The notes beneath the pieces are model-generated. The model ran no database searches and had not been told where the DNA came from. It was given only the letters and a program-made list of their open reading frames with translations. A DNA stretch of 64,000 bases from Escherichia coli (GTDB lineage: Bacteria > Pseudomonadota > Gammaproteobacteria > Enterobacterales > Enterobacteriaceae): NCBI RefSeq assembly GCF_003334405.1, contig NZ_QOWM01000015.1; one strand, given 5' to 3'. The translations under genes were made by a program, and so were the position numbers. The first letter of the stretch is position 1. The number at the start of each line of letters is the position of its first letter. Positions 7,451 through 54,528 of the stretch are shown here, in pieces.

Positions 7451-7786
7451 TTATATAATCGCCATCACTTTCCAGGCGAGCCCATAGGCCAGCGCACTAA
7501 GCAGTGTTGGGATGATAATGCTGCGTGTTTTATAGAAACTGGCACCCAGTACCGCGAAGCCGACCAGCGTGGGCACGAAACGGCGTGTATCGTGCATCAC
7601 TTCTGGTGCGGTAGAGACAACCAGCAGAGCGCATATCGAGGCGATGCCAATGGTGTCGAGCAAAATACCTACCGCGCCACGTTTGGTTGGGCGGGCATTA
7701 CCCACACGCAGGCGCAGCGGCAAATAGCGGAAGCAATAATTCGCCACGCCAACTAGTAACCCAAGCAGCAGAACCTCATAGCTCAT
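7451..7786 (-). CDS. ygaH: branched-chain amino acid (L-valine) exporter small subunit, AzlD-like
   Basis: 111-aa hydrophobic ORF overlapping the ygaZ end. Confidence 0.85.
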
Positions 7787-8513
7787 CGGGCGCTCCTTGC
7801 CAGAATGCCTGGATTAACGCAGTGAGGCAGCCACAGACAATGCCTGCCAGAATGGCGACGGGAATAGAAAATAGCGTTACGCCTGCAAGGGCACCAACTA
7901 ACGCTGCGGTAACGCAAAGAGATTGTTTGCGCTGGAAAGAGGCGAGCAGGAAACTCATAAAGAGTGCCGGAAGCATAAAACCTAATGCAGCTTCAACGGC
8001 GGGATAACCTTGCAGCAAGCCGCTGCCGGAGAATGCCCCTATTACCGTACCAAATACCCACGATGACCATGAACTGAAGGCAATGCCGATCATCCAGTTC
8101 TCGCTCCAGCGGCGATTATTGCGTACCAGTTTTGCGGTTGCGGCGGCAAAAACCTCATCCGTCAGGCCAAACGCCCACAGGGCGGTTTTCGATTTTTGCA
8201 GACGCTGAATAATACGGCTACGCAGTGACGGGCCATACAACACATGGCGAACATCCATTGCCATGACGGTCAGTGCAGCAATCCACAAACTACTCCCGGC
8301 TGCCAGCATCGCGGTAATGACGAACTGGCTCGCGCCTGCATAAATGATGCAGGAGAAAAAAACGCTTTCGAGAGGAGAGAATCCCAGACGGGTCGCATTC
8401 AGACCGAACGCAAAGGCCACCGGAATATAACTAATAACAATCGGTAAACTGTCTTTGCATCCTTCCATGAAGGTCGCCGAACCAGGAGCAGGCTGTGGAG
8501 TAGGGCTTTCCAT
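7776..8513 (-). CDS. ygaZ: branched-chain amino acid exporter large subunit, AzlC-like
   Basis: 245-aa membrane ORF upstream of and overlapping ygaH. Confidence 0.88.
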
Positions 8514-8636
8514 AGAGTGTACGCTTAACGATTGTTAATATTATAAATAGACTGAATGAATATCTTAACCTTATCAGACTGATGGGCTTCTTAACACCCT
8601 TATAAGTGTAAAGCCACGAAAACGGTTGCTGATTGC

Positions 8637-9821
8637 TTAATTTGCGGCTTCCTGACGATGAAAACCTCGCCACCAGACCAGTAAGTTAACCAGGGCAATC
8701 GTCGCGCCAGCCAGACAAACGCCAGCCCAACCGCCATGTTGCCAGGCTGAGGCTGAAATTAGCGAACCGGCGGCACCGCCAATAAAGTAGCTAGTCATGT
8801 AACCTGCGGTCAGGCGATTGCGCGCATCAGGATGTATCCGATAAATTACCGTCTGGTTAGTGATATGCACGCCCTGCACGGTGAGATCCAGCACCAGGAT
8901 TCCGATAATCAACGCCAGTACGGAAGTGTGACCAAACCAGATCGCCAGCCATGAAAGTAATAGCAGCAGCAGACCGAAAGTTGTGGTGTGGTGCGATTTG
9001 CCCTTATCGGCAAAACCGCCCGCCGGACGAGCGCCCAACGCTCCGGCAGCTCCCGCAAGTCCAAACAGACCAATGACACCATCGCTGTAGTTAAAAGGTG
9101 GAGCGGCAAGCAAAAAGGCCATTGAGGTCCAGAGAATGCTGAAATTGGCAAAGGTCAGGCAGCCCAGCAACGCGCGGGTACGCAGAATTTTATCGCTGAT
9201 AAACATACTGAAAACGGAACCCAACAACTGTGGGTAGTTGAGGTGGGTTTCTGATTTCATTTGTGGCAGACCACGCCATAATGCCAGCGCCATCAGTGCC
9301 ATTAACACCGAAGCAACCCAAAAGACGGTGCGCCAGCCGCCGAGATTCGCCAGCAATCCGGCAACTGTCCGTGCCAGCAAGATCCCCAACAGCAGACCGC
9401 TCATAATAGTGCCAACCACTTTGCCGCGTTTATCCGGTGAAGCCAGCGTCGCTGCCAGCGGAACCAGAATTTGTGCCACGACTGAGAATAAACCGGTTAA
9501 TGCCGTACCGAGGATCATCATCGCCAGCGACTGACTGCTGGCGGTAATCAACATGCCGCATGCCGCCAGTAAGGTCATCGAGACAATCAGGCGGCGGCGT
9601 TCAAACATATCACCGAGGGGAACAAGAAACAGTAGACCTGCGGCATAGCCCAACTGCGCGGCGGTAACAATAAAGCCTGCCGAACTGGCGGAAAGGGAAA
9701 AGTTACGCGCGATGGTGTCGAGCAATGGCTGGGCGTAATAGTTACTGGCTACCGCCAGACCGGTGGCGATAGACATCAGCACGATCAGCGCCGGGCTAAG
9801 CTCATGATTAGGTTTAGTCAT
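8637..9821 (-). CDS. ygaY: MFS transporter YgaY (intact here)
   Basis: Uninterrupted 394-aa ORF with multi-TM MFS features, between ygaZ and proX. Confidence 0.8.
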   Translation of the reverse strand: MTKPNHELSPALIVLMSIATGLAVASNYYAQPLLDTIARNFSLSASSAGFIVTAAQLGYAAGLLFLVPLGDMFERRRLIVSMTLLAACGMLITASSQSLAMMILGTALTGLFSVVAQILVPLAATLASPDKRGKVVGTIMSGLLLGILLARTVAGLLANLGGWRTVFWVASVLMALMALALWRGLPQMKSETHLNYPQLLGSVFSMFISDKILRTRALLGCLTFANFSILWTSMAFLLAAPPFNYSDGVIGLFGLAGAAGALGARPAGGFADKGKSHHTTTFGLLLLLLSWLAIWFGHTSVLALIIGILVLDLTVQGVHITNQTVIYRIHPDARNRLTAGYMTSYFIGGAAGSLISASAWQHGGWAGVCLAGATIALVNLLVWWRGFHRQEAAN

Positions 9822-9920
9822 TATTTTTGTTCATCAGGTGATGATTAAGCTGGAAATCAATAATAGCGGATGTTGATGAATATGGGATGAAAGATAGATT
9901 GTTGAAATGTGCGATGTGGT

Positions 9921-10003
9921 TTGTAGGCATGATAAGACGCGCCAGCGTCGCATCAGGCATTGTGCACAGAACGGCGGATGCGGCAAAAACGCCTTATCCG
10001 CCC
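9921..10003. repeat. REP/BIME extragenic palindromic element
   Basis: Contains TGTAGGCATGATAAGACGCGCCAGCGTCGCATCAGGC and GGATGCGGCAAAAACGCCTTATCCG, typical REP consensus in inverted arrangement, downstream of proX. Confidence 0.7.
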
Positions 10004-10012
10004 GAATAAAAA

Positions 10013-11005
10013 TTACTTCTGCGCTGCCAGCGCCTCATTCACCCAGCCATCGAACTGCTGCTGGTGGGCTTTGATCCAACCATCAACGTGTCCCTGAATA
10101 TCGCCTTCTGAGGCTTTGCCGTCATGCATAATGGCGTTCTGGGCGTTAATATCTGCCACTGGCAACTGCATAATGGCAAACAGTTTCGCTGCTGCCGGGT
10201 TTTTCTCGGCCCAGGCTTTGTTGGCAACGATATGCATGGTGCTGACCGGGAAGCCATAATTCGCACCATTCGGCAGTTTGGTATCGGCGTTTTTATCGCC
10301 CGGCAGTGCGGAGAACGGCACCTGCAACCAGACGACATCTTTGCCCGGCTTCAGTTCGTTACTCACCCAGTACGGCGTCCAGGTGTAATAAAACACCGGT
10401 TTGCCCTCTTTGTAGCGACTGATGGTGTCGGCCATCATCGCTGCGTAGTTCCCCTGATTATGCGTCACGGTGTTGGTCAGTTCATACGCGGCAAGCTGGT
10501 GGTTGATCGCACCTTCGCAGCCCCAGCCAGGGTTACAACCGGTTAAATCCGCTTTTCCGTCGCCGTTGGTATCGAACAGTTTGGCGATCTTCGGATCTTT
10601 CAGTTGTGCGATGTTGGTGATTTTGTACTGGTCGGCGGTTTTCTTATCGATCAGGTAACCCTGTGCCGCGCCGTTAACAAATACCCCTTCACGATAAAAT
10701 TTCTTATCGCCACCGGCAGCTTCGTACATGTTGTCATGCAGTGGCGTCCAGTTCACGGCGGTGAAGGTTGCATCGCCGGAAGCAAGCGAGGTGTAGCCAA
10801 CGTTGTAATCTACTTCGCTGGGTTTGTTGACGGTATAACCTAATTTCTCCAGCGCACGACTGACCAGCAGCGTCTGGAAGGTTTCTTCAGTGATGGTGCT
10901 CTGAACTGGATTAACAGTAATGCCTTTGCCCGGCAGATCGGCAGCAAAAGTTTGTGTAGAGATAAGCGTGGCAAACGCTGTCGCAAAAAGTACGCTATGT
11001 CGCAT
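10013..11005 (-). CDS. proX: glycine betaine/proline ABC transporter periplasmic binding protein
   Basis: ORF 10013-11047; start [21 protein letters not shown] (signal peptide) at 11005 gives 330 aa. Confidence 0.93.
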
Positions 11006-46580: not shown

Positions 46581-47810
46581 TTATGGTGCAGGATGGTTGT
46601 TGTTTTTAAATGATTGTTCTTTATTGGTATTTGTTGTCATGGGATGACAGGGTGTCAGAATATGTAGGTGGAGGATTTGGTGGAAAGGATGTGCAGTGGC
46701 ATGTAACAGAGACATGCCTCTGCGCCTGAGAAGTGCCACAATATGGACGAGCAATACAAGCCATGAATACAGACGACGCTGGCGGGGTATCTGACGAGCT
46801 GTATTGTGCAGATTGCTCCTGAGCTGGATGATACCCACTGTCTCCTGTTGTCTTTCCAGACGAATTTTTTCTTCAAGCTGATGGATTTTCTCCAGAATCG
46901 TTTCCCGGTTTGCAGCCTGCTCTTCAGACTCGCATGATGGCACTGGCACTGGCACTGGCACTGGCACTGGCACTGGCGCGGTTGTAGGTTCTATTGGCCT
47001 CTGGGCTTCTTTCAGTAAACTCAGATGCTCAGGCGTAAAATCAATCAGTGCTTGCAGGGAAGACCAGCCATATTTTTTACCCAACTGAGATGCTTTAAAG
47101 GCAATACCCTGGTATTGAAATGAAAATCCACTCATTTTACCCGTAGTGGCGATATTGGGTTTGCAGGTCACTCCTTCCTGTTCCAGTAAGCGAACAAAGG
47201 TTAGTAAATCGGGATGGTGTGTTAATGCATTGTCGAGCAGGGCCTGCAACAGTGACTTAGGGCAGGGAGCTGCTGTGCGTTCTGCCATCATCAGTTCATT
47301 ACGGGAAGGCTTCCTTTTATCCTGGCGGCTACTGCCGGTTACACCCGTAGTTTCGGTGAGGCCGTGTACTCTCTCCAGCTCACTGATAATCCGTGTGCCG
47401 ATAAGATTTTCATTTTTCCCCAGGTACAGTTTTCCACCGACCATGTTAATACGACTTGCAATGATATGAATATGCTGCCCATCCGGATCATCGTGCATGA
47501 TATAGCAGCGAAGATGGGTGTCAGTGAAGCCCATTCGGGCCATATAATCGTCAGCGAATGCTGCCCACTGTCTGTTTGACAGTTTCTCACCCTTTGGCAG
47601 GCGAAGTGAATTATGCCAGACAGGTTTGGCGACATCGGGACGCAGCAGTCGGGTGCCTTCAAATTCACTTATAAGCTCAGCAGCAGTGCTACCCGTCATG
47701 TTGCCACCGATGACATAAGGCGTGATTTTGTGGTGAGAACCTGACTTCAGGCTATAAATAACCACACCTGTGAATTGTTTACCCCTTTTTATTTTCTGCA
47801 TGCCTTTCAT
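46581..47810 (-). CDS. mobilization relaxase (MobA/MobL-like) with (Pro-Val)n linker
   Basis: 409-aa ORF; three-histidine relaxase motif HDDPDGQHIHII; internal PVPVPVPVPVPVP tract encoded by six GGCACT hexamers (46939-46974); the extreme C-terminus may be read-through. Confidence 0.75.
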   Translation of the reverse strand: MKGMQKIKRGKQFTGVVIYSLKSGSHHKITPYVIGGNMTGSTAAELISEFEGTRLLRPDVAKPVWHNSLRLPKGEKLSNRQWAAFADDYMARMGFTDTHLRCYIMHDDPDGQHIHIIASRINMVGGKLYLGKNENLIGTRIISELERVHGLTETTGVTGSSRQDKRKPSRNELMMAERTAAPCPKSLLQALLDNALTHHPDLLTFVRLLEQEGVTCKPNIATTGKMSGFSFQYQGIAFKASQLGKKYGWSSLQALIDFTPEHLSLLKEAQRPIEPTTAPVPVPVPVPVPVPSCESEEQAANRETILEKIHQLEEKIRLERQQETVGIIQLRSNLHNTARQIPRQRRLYSWLVLLVHIVALLRRRGMSLLHATAHPFHQILHLHILTPCHPMTTNTNKEQSFKNNNHPAP

Positions 47811-48415: not shown

Positions 48416-49369
48416 TTAGAGTCTTTTTCGTACAGATGAACGGGGGATCTCTGGCTTCATTTCTTTTAACAGGTCTTTTTTCTCTCTTGCTGCGATATAA
48501 GAAAAAATCTTATCGGAGTCAGAACGCTGTCTGAGTATATCGTCGTCCATTCGGATACCATTTCGAATGAACCATTTCACACTTTCTATGCCGGTGTAGA
48601 TACCAATATGTTTATCATGATAACAATTATAAAACTGAACATGACTGATATCGGTATATTTTTTCAGTGAGGTAAAGAAGTACTTCATGTTTTTGACATA
48701 TAATGCGAAGGAACAGTGTTCAGCGATAAGGATATTACGCCCTTTTTCATGAAGCAAAGCAATTAGAGGCAAAGCCTCAGTTGAAACATGTTTAAATAAT
48801 ACTGGCGTGCTGTCTATTCTATCAACATGGCGTTTGAGGGCATTAATACTGAAATCATATATCCACCACTCGTTGTCAGTCGGAAGATCCAGCACCGCTT
48901 TGCCACCATAATCTCTGTGGTTTATGTCACACCCTTTATTTACCCAGTAATCAAAGACGTCATGATCGAGGAGGTCATAAAGAAGCGTTTGTCCTTCGTT
49001 ATCTGTGCTGTGGATATCAATGCCCGCGTTTATGAGGAGTTCCGCACAATCTATGGCGTAGCGCTGCCAGTGAAGACAGGACTGGCCTTTATTATTTTTG
49101 TGGTGAACGTTAATACCTGACTTTATCAATAGCCTCACTGCACGTGGGCTTTTTCTGCTAAACAGGGCATTATTACCATAACAATCTGTATGGTTCAGCG
49201 CTATGCCTGCTTCAATCATGGCTTTTAAAGCCCCGATACTGTCGCAACCGAAAAGGGCGTTTTCACCGTGTTCATTAAGTGTGTTAATGTCAATGCCTGC
49301 AGCAATGCAATTCTGGACGTCTTTTTTAGTTTTGCTGTCAAATAAATTATCTTCTGTATAGTTACTCAT
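48416..49369 (-). CDS. ankyrin-repeat protein
   Basis: 317-aa ORF; N-terminal half has repeated ankyrin-like units (…GENALFGC…LKAMIEAGIALNHTDCYGNNALF…AVRLLIKSGINVHHKNNKGQSCLHW…AELLINAGIDIHSTDNEGQTLLY…); C-terminus …SSVRKRL. Confidence 0.7.
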   Translation of the reverse strand: MSNYTEDNLFDSKTKKDVQNCIAAGIDINTLNEHGENALFGCDSIGALKAMIEAGIALNHTDCYGNNALFSRKSPRAVRLLIKSGINVHHKNNKGQSCLHWQRYAIDCAELLINAGIDIHSTDNEGQTLLYDLLDHDVFDYWVNKGCDINHRDYGGKAVLDLPTDNEWWIYDFSINALKRHVDRIDSTPVLFKHVSTEALPLIALLHEKGRNILIAEHCSFALYVKNMKYFFTSLKKYTDISHVQFYNCYHDKHIGIYTGIESVKWFIRNGIRMDDDILRQRSDSDKIFSYIAAREKKDLLKEMKPEIPRSSVRKRL

Positions 49370-51440: not shown

Positions 51441-51517
51441 TGGTTTTTGTAATATTATATTAAAAGTTCATACAGCGACTATAGCATCATTGCGAAAAAT
51501 ATCAGGAGGTGAGTTTA

Positions 51518-53623
51518 ATGTTACGAAAAAGCAAACTTACAGAGATATATAAAAGGTTTGGTTTTACTGAAGAAAATACAGGTAACGAAAGTATTGCTGT
51601 ATATTCTATTAAAACAGGGCACTACCATAACGCGGACATACTTCCACTAAATAATGAGGTTAATGTAAATCAAACCTTTGAAGAATATAGGCAGTTAGGT
51701 TATGCATGTCAAATTAAAAAATATCAGTCTTATGAAGAAGCACATAAGGAATTATTTAATGGCTTCTTTAGCGTCGATTCAACTAAAGAAAGGTTGATTA
51801 AAGATTATAATACTTTCACAGATTCAATTGTAAAAATTCACTCACCTACTGCAACTTATTCCTACATAAATTCAAAATATTACTTAAATGGTGTTATTGG
51901 CGAAGCTAATGTTGTTACGGAAATATTAGAGAGAATACAACATAGGCGTCCAATTCTGTTTTTGATTGAGGCTGCAGCCGGTTTTGGAAAGACTTGCACG
52001 GCGTATGAATTATTGAGGGAGATTATAGTTAACAATATAGGGAAAATACCATTATTTTCAGAACTATCAAGGAATAGGCAAGCAAAAATATTCAGGTATG
52101 TACTATTAGATGAAATTGATAGAAGTTTTCCTTTGTTAAGCTCAGCCTTAGTAAGGAATGAAATAAGAGCAGGAAATGTACCAGTTATACTTGACGGGTT
52201 TGATGAACTATTGCATGAAAGTACAAACGGAATTGAAAATAATTATGAAAAAACAGAGCCAATGCTGGAAACAATAAGTGAGCTTCTAACTGATAGTGCA
52301 AAAGTGGTTTTGACAACTCGAAGAACAGCTATATTTGACGGAGATGAATTCCATCAGTGGATAGCATCACATCAAGAAGATTTTGATGTGATAAGAATAA
52401 GAATTCATGAACCACAAATTGAAGACTGGCTTCCAGGTCAACGTTTAGATGAAATTTCATCGACAGGATTTCCTCTTAACAAATTATCAAACCCTGTACT
52501 GCTATCATTTCTAAGATGCATCGACGACACCGACTTTAATAAAGTTATAAGCGACCCAACAACTATAGTGAGGAAGTATTTTGATTCAATGCTTGAGCGA
52601 GAAAGAAAAAGACAAGATTTATTAATGTCTATTGAAGATCAATATACTATACTAAAAATAATAGCTGACGACATGGTCGAGGGTAACTACACATCTGAGT
52701 CTAGAGAGTATATATCGTTAGTCATAACTGAAAAGAATCAACAACTCTTGGAGGCTACAAGAAAGCTTTATACTGTAGATGAAAGACCAACTACTGACGA
52801 ATTAGTTAATAAATTAGCATCGCATGCTCTATTAGATCGGTCAGGCTCAGAAAACCAAGGTATTGGATTTGTTAATGAATTTGTTCTTGGTAATTTTGTT
52901 TCTGAAAATATTATTAATGATAAGTCAAATGAATGGATTGGTGATAAACGTTTTATAGAACCAGCAGTGCAATCTTATATGCCGAGGATCGATGATGAAA
53001 AAGAATTACTTTGGCATAGCTTAGAGTTTGCTTTATATTTTATGTCAGGTAATGATAAAATCCTTTATAGTCATTTGCTTATAGGAAAAGTTCCATTAGA
53101 TTTAAAAAATGATAGTGTTGAGCAATTGTCTATATCAAAACTTTCTTTAGGCGATATAAATATAATACATGATACTATCTTTGTTGATTGTTCCTTTTTT
53201 AGCAGCATATTTACCTGTGGTAATTATAAAAACGTTACATTCGTGAACTGTTCTTTTATAGATTGTAGTTTTAACGAATTAAGTGGTAGGGAAGATATTT
53301 ATTTTTTGGGATGTGAATGTGACAATGATGCTATTAATAAAAAATCTGTCGAGATAAACAGTGAAAATGATCACGATATTACAGATTGTGATATTTACAT
53401 CTTAGAGAAGTTCTGTCCCAGAGGGAGTGTTAGCTATCATAAGCATCGGCCTATAAAAGGCTTATGTTCTAACAACAATCAATTTCAGTTAAGTGAAATA
53501 CTCCATTCTTTAGATAAATTGAGGAAAGACGGTCTTTTACTTACGCCAGACAAGCGTTCGTTCCTTGAACTTAACATGGCAAGAATATCAGAGATTAAAG
53601 CAATTCTTGGGAGGAATTTCTGA
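51518..53623 (+). CDS. NACHT-type STAND P-loop NTPase with Cys-rich repeat C-terminus
   Basis: ORF 51509-53623; ATG at 51518 sits 8 nt after AGGAGGT. Walker A LIEAAAGFGKT, Walker B VILDGFDEL (hhhhDGhDE), then VVLTTRR, in NACHT order; C-terminal Cys-rich region (FVDCSFFSSIFTCGNYKNVTFVNCSFIDCSF…). Confidence 0.75.
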   Translation: MLRKSKLTEIYKRFGFTEENTGNESIAVYSIKTGHYHNADILPLNNEVNVNQTFEEYRQLGYACQIKKYQSYEEAHKELFNGFFSVDSTKERLIKDYNTFTDSIVKIHSPTATYSYINSKYYLNGVIGEANVVTEILERIQHRRPILFLIEAAAGFGKTCTAYELLREIIVNNIGKIPLFSELSRNRQAKIFRYVLLDEIDRSFPLLSSALVRNEIRAGNVPVILDGFDELLHESTNGIENNYEKTEPMLETISELLTDSAKVVLTTRRTAIFDGDEFHQWIASHQEDFDVIRIRIHEPQIEDWLPGQRLDEISSTGFPLNKLSNPVLLSFLRCIDDTDFNKVISDPTTIVRKYFDSMLERERKRQDLLMSIEDQYTILKIIADDMVEGNYTSESREYISLVITEKNQQLLEATRKLYTVDERPTTDELVNKLASHALLDRSGSENQGIGFVNEFVLGNFVSENIINDKSNEWIGDKRFIEPAVQSYMPRIDDEKELLWHSLEFALYFMSGNDKILYSHLLIGKVPLDLKNDSVEQLSISKLSLGDINIIHDTIFVDCSFFSSIFTCGNYKNVTFVNCSFIDCSFNELSGREDIYFLGCECDNDAINKKSVEINSENDHDITDCDIYILEKFCPRGSVSYHKHRPIKGLCSNNNQFQLSEILHSLDKLRKDGLLLTPDKRSFLELNMARISEIKAILGRNF

Positions 53624-54528
53624 TGTATAACGGGAATGAATTGCGAATTATTCAAAGTTTGCAAAAAGATATAGAAGATGAACTTAATCGTATTGGATTA
53701 CTTTATCGTTTTTTTTCGAGGACAAAATCAGAAAGCTCAATAATTAAGAAATATGAAAAAGAGCCTAATAAATACTCAGAGGATGGTAAAAAAATTCAAG
53801 ACTTATTTGGGGTTAGGATAATATTATATTTTCCTGATGATTTATTTATTGCTCAAAAAACACTGGAGAAATTATTCGAAATTGAATCTAAAACCGTAGA
53901 CGAAACCACGGCTAATCTCTTTGCGGCAACTCGATGCAATTACGTCTTTAAGTTACCAGAAGTATTATCAAATGATAGTGTCTTATTAAAGAAATATTCT
54001 TATATTGATACTACTTTTGAAGTCCAATTTAGAACTATTTTATCTGAAGGATGGCATGAAGTTGAGCATGATCTACGCTATAAGTGCAAAGAGGATTGGG
54101 TTGAGCATAATGACCTTAGTCGCGCGCTGAATGGAATTTACGCCTCTTTGGAAACATCTGATTGGGGAATAATGAAGTTATTTGAGGATTTAGCATATAG
54201 AAATTATAAGTCAAGCGCATGGTCCGCTATGCTAAGAAATAAATTAAGATTGAGAATGGACGATAAGCTTGATGAAAAGATAATTTCAATAATTAATGAG
54301 AAAGAGCTTGGTAAAAAGTTTTATAGAATTGACAGAGATCGTTTGTTATCGTTAATGTTAGATTATAATATTGATATACCAATTAATCTTAATAATATAA
54401 TTTACCTTTGTAATTATTTTTTCATAAAATCTACGGAGCTTCAGGATATAGCCCCTGCTTTAATAATGAAAAAGCTTACAGATGCTGATGAAAAATTCAA
54501 TAAAAATACTATTTTAGCATCTAAATAA
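53623..54528 (+). CDS. RelA/SpoT-homolog (RSH) synthetase-fold nucleotidyltransferase, toxSAS-like
   Basis: 301-aa ORF whose ATG overlaps the upstream stop (TGATG). Motifs SRTKSESSIIKK, DLFGVRIILYFPDD and EVQFRTILSEGWHEVEHDLRYK match the (p)ppGpp synthetase fold (compare RelA EVQIRT…AAHWKYK). Confidence 0.7.
   Translation: MYNGNELRIIQSLQKDIEDELNRIGLLYRFFSRTKSESSIIKKYEKEPNKYSEDGKKIQDLFGVRIILYFPDDLFIAQKTLEKLFEIESKTVDETTANLFAATRCNYVFKLPEVLSNDSVLLKKYSYIDTTFEVQFRTILSEGWHEVEHDLRYKCKEDWVEHNDLSRALNGIYASLETSDWGIMKLFEDLAYRNYKSSAWSAMLRNKLRLRMDDKLDEKIISIINEKELGKKFYRIDRDRLLSLMLDYNIDIPINLNNIIYLCNYFFIKSTELQDIAPALIMKKLTDADEKFNKNTILASK

What the first reader, a model, noticed from the sequence alone, without database searches (positions are those of the whole stretch)
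8637..9821. ygaY is an intact 394-aa MFS transporter gene here
The ORF is uninterrupted with continuous transmembrane character. As I recall, ygaY is annotated as an interrupted pseudogene in K-12 MG1655; if so, this strain retains the ancestral functional allele.
Basis: partly seen in the sequence, partly recalled or inferred. Interest (0 to 1): 0.3.

Follow-up and report, generated by a model that had tools for sequence, protein, structure and literature searches.

The report
Intact ygaY transporter gene, K-12 pseudogene
This strain carries the normal, working-looking copy of a membrane transporter gene (ygaY) that the laboratory strain K-12 has broken by losing 7 bases; this is the state of the gene in about 93% of E. 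coli genomes, so it is correct but ordinary.

Summary
Window 8637-9821 (minus strand) is an uninterrupted 394-codon ORF. It encodes a 12-helix MFS transporter between proX and ygaZH.

The only difference between the window gene and K-12's is 7 bp. The window has a perfect tandem heptamer, GCGGCAT GCGGCAT, in codons 86-90. K-12 has one copy, which shifts the frame to a TGA stop after residue 88, inside TM3.

- The K-12 junction occurs in 353 of 5426 complete E. coli genomes. Every genome sampled was a K-12 laboratory derivative.
- About 5050 genomes keep the 7 bp.
- E. fergusonii, Citrobacter and Salmonella have 394-aa orthologues in the same gene order.
- dN/dS is 0.01-0.04, so the gene is under purifying selection.

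One nuance: the window allele is the immediate precursor of the K-12 lesion, not the deep ancestor. A lineage-specific Gly88Cys change (GGC to TGC) made the repeat perfect. That exact allele is in 685 genomes.

The family is TCDB 2.A.1.36 (YnfM). The fold is closest to DHA1 exporters. The substrate is unknown.

This is already known and of low interest.

The parts
8637..9821 (-). ygaY coding sequence: 394 aa, intact MFS transporter (TCDB 2.A.1.36 YnfM family)
   Evidence: ORF. Pfam MFS_1 matches both halves. Identical to RefSeq CDS WP_000165680.1. AF2 model gives a 12-TM MFS fold.
9553..9566 (-). Perfect tandem heptamer: GCGGCAT GCGGCAT on the coding strand, ATGCCGC x2 on the + strand. K-12 has lost one copy. 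The period-7 tract is 9552-9566, so any 7-bp deletion within it gives the K-12 sequence.
   Evidence: Pairwise alignment with MG1655 and DH10B. Sequence read directly.
9558..9560 (-). Codon 88, TGC (Cys). Other E. coli, E. fergusonii and Citrobacter have GGC (Gly). The G-to-T change is what makes the heptamer repeat perfect.
   Evidence: Allele comparison. Position 88 is variable in the family, with Cys in 4 of 81 sequences.
9926..10003 (-). REP/BIME-type repeat in the proX-ygaY spacer. It matches Rfam naRNA4, a REP-derived family.
   Evidence: Rfam RF02564, 72.2 bits against a gathering score of 59.5. This part of the query matches many places per genome.
10013..11005 (-). proX, the last gene of proVWX, upstream of ygaY on the same strand
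   Evidence: RefSeq annotation of the identical region in L002. ORF.
7776..8513 (-). ygaZ (L-valine exporter subunit), downstream of ygaY on the same strand and followed by ygaH at 7451-7786
8540..8568 (-). Sigma-70-like promoter match (TTAAGA-17-TATAAT, 10/12) in the ygaY-ygaZ spacer. It is a candidate ygaZH promoter and would imply that ygaY is not obligatorily co-transcribed with ygaZH.
   Evidence: Consensus scan only. Not evidence of function.

Best explanation
Window 8637-9821 (-) is the intact orthologue of ygaY. It is a conserved 394-aa, 12-helix major-facilitator transporter encoded between proVWX and ygaZH-mprA-emrAB. K-12 carries the same allele minus one copy of a perfectly duplicated heptamer (GCGGCAT GCGGCAT reduced to GCGGCAT). 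This is the signature of replication slippage between tandem direct repeats. The loss shifts the frame and stops translation at TGA after residue 88, inside TM3. The repeat became perfect only in one phylogroup-A sublineage, through a Gly88Cys (GGC to TGC) substitution, so the window holds the immediate precursor allele. Shown: the ORF, the lesion, its restriction to K-12 laboratory strains, conservation, synteny and purifying selection. Inferred: the slippage mechanism; that the protein is expressed and active; and that it works as a proton-coupled secondary transporter, most likely an exporter of a small organic solute. This last point rests on analogy with its paralogue YnfM and with DHA1-type folds. 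The substrate is unknown.
For: - **ORF:** intact, 394 aa.
- **K-12 status:** MG1655 ygaY is a 1178-bp pseudogene; DH10B is 'frameshifted' and identical to MG1655.
- **Lesion:** the only difference is a 7-bp gap at a perfect tandem heptamer, giving LLAAC* in K-12.
- **Closeness to K-12:** over 40,164 bp the window differs from K-12 by 8 SNPs plus this one indel.
- **Distribution:** the K-12 junction 37-mer is in 353 of 5426 genomes, and all 120 listed are K-12 derivatives or transconjugants. The window's 44-mer is exact in 685 genomes from humans, livestock and water. Other phylogroups keep the 7 bp with SNPs.
- **Orthologues and synteny:** 394-aa orthologues at 97-98% (E. fergusonii) and 93% (Citrobacter, Salmonella), with conserved gene order.
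- **Selection:** dN/dS 0.013-0.043 in all nine comparisons.
- **Family and fold:** MFS_1 twice; motif-A residues L69, G70, D71 and G268, D272 nearly invariant; AF2 pLDDT 95.3; best folds SotB, MdfA and NorA with TM 0.80-0.87; 26% full-length identity to YnfM, E 6e-21; TCDB 2.A.1.36.3 (PMC5417439).
- **Paralogue function:** YnfM is a proton-coupled glutarate exporter (PMC12622518).
Against: - There is no expression or transport data for the intact allele.
- No Shine-Dalgarno sequence is obvious before the ATG, and the consensus scan found no promoter-like site in the proX-ygaY spacer.
- No NCBIfam model reaches its curated cut-off, so no subfamily or substrate can be assigned.
- The DHA antiporter motif C (GxxxGPxxGG in TM5) is not present in canonical form, so export rather than import is not established.
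- Cys88 is a derived residue in E. coli. Salmonella has Cys there too, and the position is variable in the family.
Confidence: 0.88

Rival explanations
1. The window allele is not the precursor but a secondary revertant. On this reading a K-12-like single-copy pseudogene was repaired by a 7-bp duplication that restored the frame.
For: A tandem duplication and a deletion at a short repeat are mechanistically symmetrical. The rest of the gene is identical to K-12.
Against: The two-copy length (1185 bp, 394 aa) is shared by every other E. coli phylogroup sampled and by E. fergusonii, Citrobacter and Salmonella. The closest non-identical allele, WCHEC035123, has GCGGCAGGCGGCAT: the same length and one base from the perfect repeat. 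The single-copy form was seen only in K-12 laboratory derivatives.
Confidence: 0.02
2. The ORF is intact but the gene is effectively silent or dispensable in this lineage too, for example H-NS-silenced. Under this reading 'functional allele' overstates the case.
For: K-12 lost the gene without known phenotype, and the locus is routinely used as a neutral insertion site or control. H-NS/StpA-dependent effects and an H-NS bridge to ygaY are reported in K-12 (10.1101/2023.07.10.548347). There is no clear promoter or SD upstream.
Against: Strong purifying selection within E. coli and out to Salmonella and Citrobacter (dN/dS 0.013-0.043, dS up to about 1.1). Length and synteny are conserved. ygaY transcripts are detectable by RT-qPCR even in K-12.
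Confidence: 0.08
3. The 7-bp difference is a sequencing or assembly artefact in one of the two records.
For: Short indels at repeats are a common assembly error.
Against: 353 independent K-12-derived assemblies share the single-copy junction and 685 independent assemblies share the two-copy sequence. None has three copies.
Confidence: 0.01
4. K-12 ygaY is not a complete null. The ATG of Met90 overlaps the new stop (GCATGTTGA), so termination-reinitiation could give an 88-aa N-fragment plus a 305-aa C-fragment, which might assemble into a split transporter.
For: Direct reading of the K-12 junction and its frame-2 translation, which runs from MLITASS... to the normal C-terminus.
Against: The split falls inside TM3 (helix 75-94 of the model). 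There is no SD upstream of the restart codon. A fall in transcript level along K-12 ygaY has been attributed to its crypticity. There is no experimental support.
Confidence: 0.03

Closest known systems
E. coli K-12 ygaY (b2681; UniProt P76628; TCDB 2.A.1.36.3), annotated pseudogene
   Same: Same locus, same flanking genes, and 1178 of 1178 shared nucleotides identical.
   Different: The window has both copies of the GCGGCAT heptamer, so it reads through to 394 aa. K-12 has one copy and stops after residue 88.
RefSeq WP_000165680.1 'MFS transporter' (e.g. E. coli strain 720632)
   Same: 100% identical DNA over the gene and both spacers. It is the same protein.
   Different: Nothing. This is the same allele, already in the databases.
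YnfM (b1596, TCDB 2.A.1.36.1), founding member of the acriflavin-sensitivity (YnfM) family. Reported as a proton-coupled glutarate exporter in E. coli BL21, and as a glutarate exporter in Corynebacterium glutamicum.
   Same: Full-length alignment at 26% identity, E 6e-21. Same TCDB family (PMC5417439). 12-TM MFS architecture.
   Different: It is a distant paralogue at another locus. No substrate has been shown for YgaY, so the glutarate function (PMC12622518) cannot be transferred at 26% identity.
DHA1-family drug/sugar:H+ antiporters SotB (6kkk/6kkl), MdfA (6euq, 4zp0), NorA (8ttf)
   Same: Best structural matches to the AF2 model: TM-score 0.80-0.87, rmsd 2.3-4.4 A over about 380-400 columns.
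   Different: Only 15-18% sequence identity. DHA1 NCBIfam models fall far below their cut-offs (Bcr/CflA 52 bits against 200.9). The canonical antiporter motif C is not evident.

Membership tests
Major facilitator superfamily (MFS) | Profile match to MFS_1 in both the N- and C-terminal six-helix halves | tested here: met
   PF07690 over residues 17-273 (E 8.5e-32) and 218-385 (E 3.2e-11).
Major facilitator superfamily (MFS) | Twelve transmembrane helices in two pseudo-symmetric bundles | tested here: met
   AF2 model with pLDDT 95.3 and pTM 0.93. Helices lie at about 10-40, 45-65, 75-94, 99-126, 132-161 and 163-184, then a linker helix at 196-209, then 211-239, 247-272, 276-298, 301-329 and 331-393. 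The last DSSP element is a single helix; reading it as TM11 plus TM12 is my interpretation. TM-score to solved MFS transporters is 0.80-0.87.
Major facilitator superfamily (MFS) | Motif A (GxxxD(R/K)xGR(R/K)-like) in the TM2-TM3 loop, with its repeat in the TM8-TM9 loop | tested here: met
   The sequence PLGDMFERRR lies at residues 68-77. L69, G70 and D71 are at least 90% conserved, and G268 and D272 are at least 90% conserved, in 81 homologues.
TCDB 2.A.1.36 acriflavin-sensitivity (YnfM) family | Full-length sequence similarity to YnfM and curated placement of YgaY in the family | tested here: met
   BLASTP against K-12 YnfM gives 26% identity over about 409 columns, E 6e-21. P76628 is listed as 2.A.1.36.3 in PMC5417439.
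TCDB 2.A.1.36 acriflavin-sensitivity (YnfM) family | Transport phenotype (acriflavine sensitivity or dicarboxylate export) | not testable with these tools
   Needs expression and transport assays.
DHA1 drug:H+ antiporters (TCDB 2.A.1.2) | Profile match above the curated cut-off to a DHA1 subfamily model | tested here: not met
   TIGR00710 Bcr/CflA scores 52 bits against a cut-off of 200.9. Cmx/CmrA scores 53.9 against 400. EmrD scores 39.2 against 479.
DHA1 drug:H+ antiporters (TCDB 2.A.1.2) | Antiporter motif C (GxxxGPxxGG) in TM5 | tested here: not met
   TM5 reads GKVVGTIMSGLLLGILLARTVAGLL. The conserved pattern is G137/G142/G146/R151/G155, with no GP or GG (direct reading).
Intact allele, as opposed to pseudogene, of ygaY | Uninterrupted ORF of orthologue length, and purifying selection | tested here: met
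   394 aa, the same length as E. fergusonii, Citrobacter and Salmonella orthologues. dN/dS is 0.013-0.043.
Intact allele, as opposed to pseudogene, of ygaY | Expression and activity of the product | not testable with these tools
   The only data found are K-12 transcript measurements.

The most novel reading that the evidence does not exclude
A nonsynonymous change (Gly88Cys) in one phylogroup-A sublineage created a perfect 7-bp tandem repeat inside ygaY. This made the gene prone to one-step inactivation by slippage, which would be reversible in principle. K-12 is the one lineage caught in the OFF state. The window carries the ON precursor of a conserved YnfM-family exporter whose substrate is still unknown, and which sits in a cluster of exporters (ygaZH, emrAB). 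Restoring the 7 bp in K-12 would re-create a transporter that all K-12-based physiology has been missing.
Probability: 0.5. Interest if true: 0.2.

Novelty: already known. Interest (0 to 1): 0.1.

Why it matters
It matters little beyond book-keeping.

- It confirms that K-12's ygaY pseudogene is specific to the laboratory lineage and is not a species trait.
- It pins the lesion to a 7-bp slip at a tandem heptamer.
- It shows that natural, near-K-12 strains carry a conserved, selectively constrained transporter of unknown substrate.
- Practically, ygaY is widely used as a 'neutral' integration site or control in K-12. That assumption should not be carried over to non-K-12 hosts, where the gene is intact.

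Tried and rejected
- **Three-copy (expanded) heptamer allele.** I looked for this as a sign that the repeat is hypermutable. A 51-mer query could not separate two from three copies, because overlapping pieces were joined. A 31-mer that can only seed on three copies found nothing in 5426 genomes. There is therefore no evidence of phase-variation-like behaviour.
- **NCBIfam subfamily or substrate.** All 27 hits are far below their curated cut-offs.
- **Sequence search of the PDB.** It gave only weak hits: GlcP 6e-9, EmrD, SotB. The fold search was more informative.
- **Promoter and terminator scan of the proX-ygaY spacer.** There was no promoter-like site upstream of ygaY. The counts were not above the shuffled expectation.
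- **Rfam on the locus.** The only hit was a REP-derived naRNA4 match in the spacer, with no riboswitch or leader.
- **Reversion, artefact and split-protein readings.** I considered and rejected these; see the rival explanations.
- **Not done.** I did not count other, independent ygaY lesions among the 5426 genomes. The tools do not expose pseudogene flags in bulk. In a spread sample of 39 full-length or near-full-length hits, the only net length difference was the 7-bp one in the three single-copy genomes: two K-12 strains and the transconjugant THB42-F5.

Full report
**Observation**

The ORF listing shows a single uninterrupted ORF at window 8637..9821 on the minus strand, with an ATG start and 394 aa. 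Downstream on the same strand are ygaZ (7776-8513) and ygaH (7451-7786). Upstream is proX (10013-11005).

Pfam finds MFS_1 in both halves: residues 17-273 at E 8.5e-32 and residues 218-385 at E 3.2e-11. The region is 100% identical to RefSeq genomes in which this CDS is annotated 'MFS transporter', WP_000165680.1.

**Comparison with K-12**

NC_000913.3 annotates ygaY (b2681) as a pseudogene of 1178 bp. DH10B carries the identical sequence flagged 'frameshifted'.

A global alignment of the window gene (1185 bp) with the MG1655 gene shows exactly one difference, a 7-bp gap, and no substitutions.

- On the coding strand the window reads CTG GCG GCA TGC GGC ATG TTG, which translates as L A A C G M L. 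This contains the perfect tandem heptamer GCGGCAT GCGGCAT, at + strand 9553-9566.
- K-12 reads CTG GCG GCA TGT TGA, with one heptamer copy and a stop after residue 88.
- In the structural model residue 88 lies in helix 75-94, which is TM3. The K-12 product would therefore have only about two and a half of the twelve helices.

Loss of one unit of a perfect tandem direct repeat is the classic outcome of replication slippage. That mechanism is inferred here, not shown.

**How close the strain is to K-12**

Window 1-40164 aligns to K-12 2818129-2777973 with 8 SNPs and one gap, which is this indel. Window 60594-64000 also matches K-12. The 20.4 kb in between, next to ssrA, is a different island from K-12's CP4-57 prophage.

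The window therefore comes from a very close natural relative of K-12. The ygaY deletion is the only indel in 40 kb.

**Distribution of the alleles**

- A 37-mer spanning the K-12 junction cannot seed on the two-copy allele. It occurs in 353 of 5426 complete E. coli genomes.
- An 80-mer query gave 354 genomes at 99% identity or above. The other roughly 5050 genomes aligned with the 7-bp gap.
- All 120 listed single-copy genomes are K-12 derivatives, transconjugants in K-12 recipients, or K-12 used in mouse colonisation. Examples are MG1655, W3110-type strains, BW25113, DH5alpha, DH10B, C600, J53, MC4100 and O16:H48 strains.
- The window's 44-mer with the perfect repeat is exact in 685 genomes, from humans, dogs, pigs, poultry, cattle and water.
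- No genome has three copies.

**Direction of change**

Six other E. coli alleles, including O157 and ATCC 25922, as well as E. fergusonii, Citrobacter and Salmonella, all have 1185-bp, 394-aa genes.

At the repeat they read GCAGCGGGCGGTAT or GCGGCAGGCGGCAT, which is an imperfect repeat with Gly88 (GGC). Only the window/K-12 haplotype has TGC (Cys88), and that change makes the repeat perfect. Salmonella independently has Cys88. Position 88 is variable in the wider family (L/V/A/I, with C in 4 of 81), so the substitution is probably tolerated.

The order of events is therefore:

1. Gly88Cys arose in a phylogroup-A sublineage.
2. One repeat unit was then lost in the K-12 line.

The window holds the immediate precursor allele rather than the species-wide ancestral sequence.

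**Evidence that the gene is real and constrained**

- Orthologues are 97-98% identical in E. fergusonii, 95-96% in E. albertii, and 93% in Citrobacter and Salmonella. Nearly all are 394 aa (E. albertii 391-393 aa).
- The gene order nrdF-proVWX-ygaY-ygaZH-mprA-emrAB is conserved in Citrobacter and E. fergusonii. The Salmonella contig lacks ygaZH but keeps ygaY between proX and emrR.
- Nei-Gojobori dN/dS against the window allele is 0.013-0.043 in all nine comparisons, with dS up to about 1.1.
- The family is large: 1152 50%-identity clusters at E 1e-30 or better.

**What it is and how it probably works**

- An alignment of 81 homologues shows the MFS motif A residues (PLGDxxERRR; L69, G70, D71) and their second-half counterpart (G268, D272) to be nearly invariant.
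- The AlphaFold2 model has pLDDT 95.3 and pTM 0.93.
- Its best solved-structure matches are the DHA1 proton antiporters SotB, MdfA and NorA, with TM 0.80-0.87.
- By sequence YgaY is a 26%-identical full-length paralogue of YnfM. It is classed as TCDB 2.A.1.36.3 in the YnfM family (PMC5417439).
- YnfM has been reported as a proton-coupled glutarate exporter in E. coli BL21 (PMC12622518).

My best inference is a proton-motive-force-driven secondary transporter working by alternating access, more likely an exporter than an importer.

This is not established. No NCBIfam model reaches its cut-off. The canonical antiporter motif C is absent. No substrate can be assigned.

**Expression**

Upstream, the proX-ygaY spacer contains a REP-type element (Rfam naRNA4 hit at 9926-10003). 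It has no consensus promoter or strong Shine-Dalgarno.

A published K-12 study detected ygaY transcripts that rose after osmotic shock in a stpA mutant, which is consistent with some read-through from proVWX (10.1101/2023.07.10.548347).

**Novelty**

Both facts are already in public annotation and literature. K-12 ygaY is a recognised pseudogene that is used as a neutral insertion site and as a control deletion. The intact protein is a RefSeq entry present in hundreds of genomes.

The precise description of the lesion is a tidy detail, not a discovery: a 7-bp slip at a repeat made perfect by Gly88Cys. Interest is low.

Noticed in passing
window 40165-60593: A 20.4-kb island lies directly next to the tmRNA gene ssrA (60595-60957, minus strand), where K-12 has the CP4-57 cryptic prophage, and it does not match CP4-57. 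Full-length copies occur in only 56 of 5426 complete E. coli genomes, for example MRE162 and 52F4. It encodes a P4-type integrase (59199-60572), a large serine-recombinase-like protein (57360-58922), two ParB-like proteins (55581-57370), a MobP-type relaxase-like protein (46581-47810) and an ankyrin-repeat protein (48416-49369).
   Followed up: partly
window 51509-54528 (+): Inside that island, a 704-aa ORF is immediately followed by a 301-aa ORF. RefSeq calls a NACHT domain-containing protein in the matching genomes. The 704-aa ORF has no NCBIfam or PADLOC hit. The 301-aa ORF has weak RelA/SpoT-type (small alarmone synthetase, YjbM) similarity, E 2.7e-7. The pair matches no known PADLOC system and could be an uncharacterised defence module.
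   Followed up: partly
window 9926-10003: A REP/BIME-type repeat in the proX-ygaY spacer scores above the Rfam gathering threshold for naRNA4 (RF02564; 72.2 bits on the minus strand and 38 bits on the plus strand). The same stretch matches a median of 8 places per E. coli genome.
   Followed up: partly
window 9814-9960 (-): A 48-codon ORF runs out of the REP element and ends (…MNKNND*) 4 nt past the ygaY ATG, in the arrangement ATGACTAA. ygaY itself lacks an obvious Shine-Dalgarno. This is probably a chance ORF, but translational coupling was not tested.
   Followed up: no
window 1-40164 compared with K-12 2777973-2818129: Apart from the ygaY indel, the window differs from MG1655 by only 8 SNPs in 40 kb, at window 6639, 6740, 16522, 28046, 31156, 36229, 37552 and 38136. 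Other K-12 pseudogenes in this stretch (ygaQ, pinH) are therefore in the K-12 state here apart from at most a single base change (the SNP at 31156 maps inside ygaQ); only ygaY differs by an indel.
   Followed up: partly
K-12 locus L003 5571-5580 (no window equivalent): In K-12 the new stop overlaps the ATG of Met90 (GCATGTTGA). This leaves a 305-codon ORF in the original frame and explains the old two-ORF annotation of the locus. Whether re-initiation occurs is unknown.
   Followed up: no
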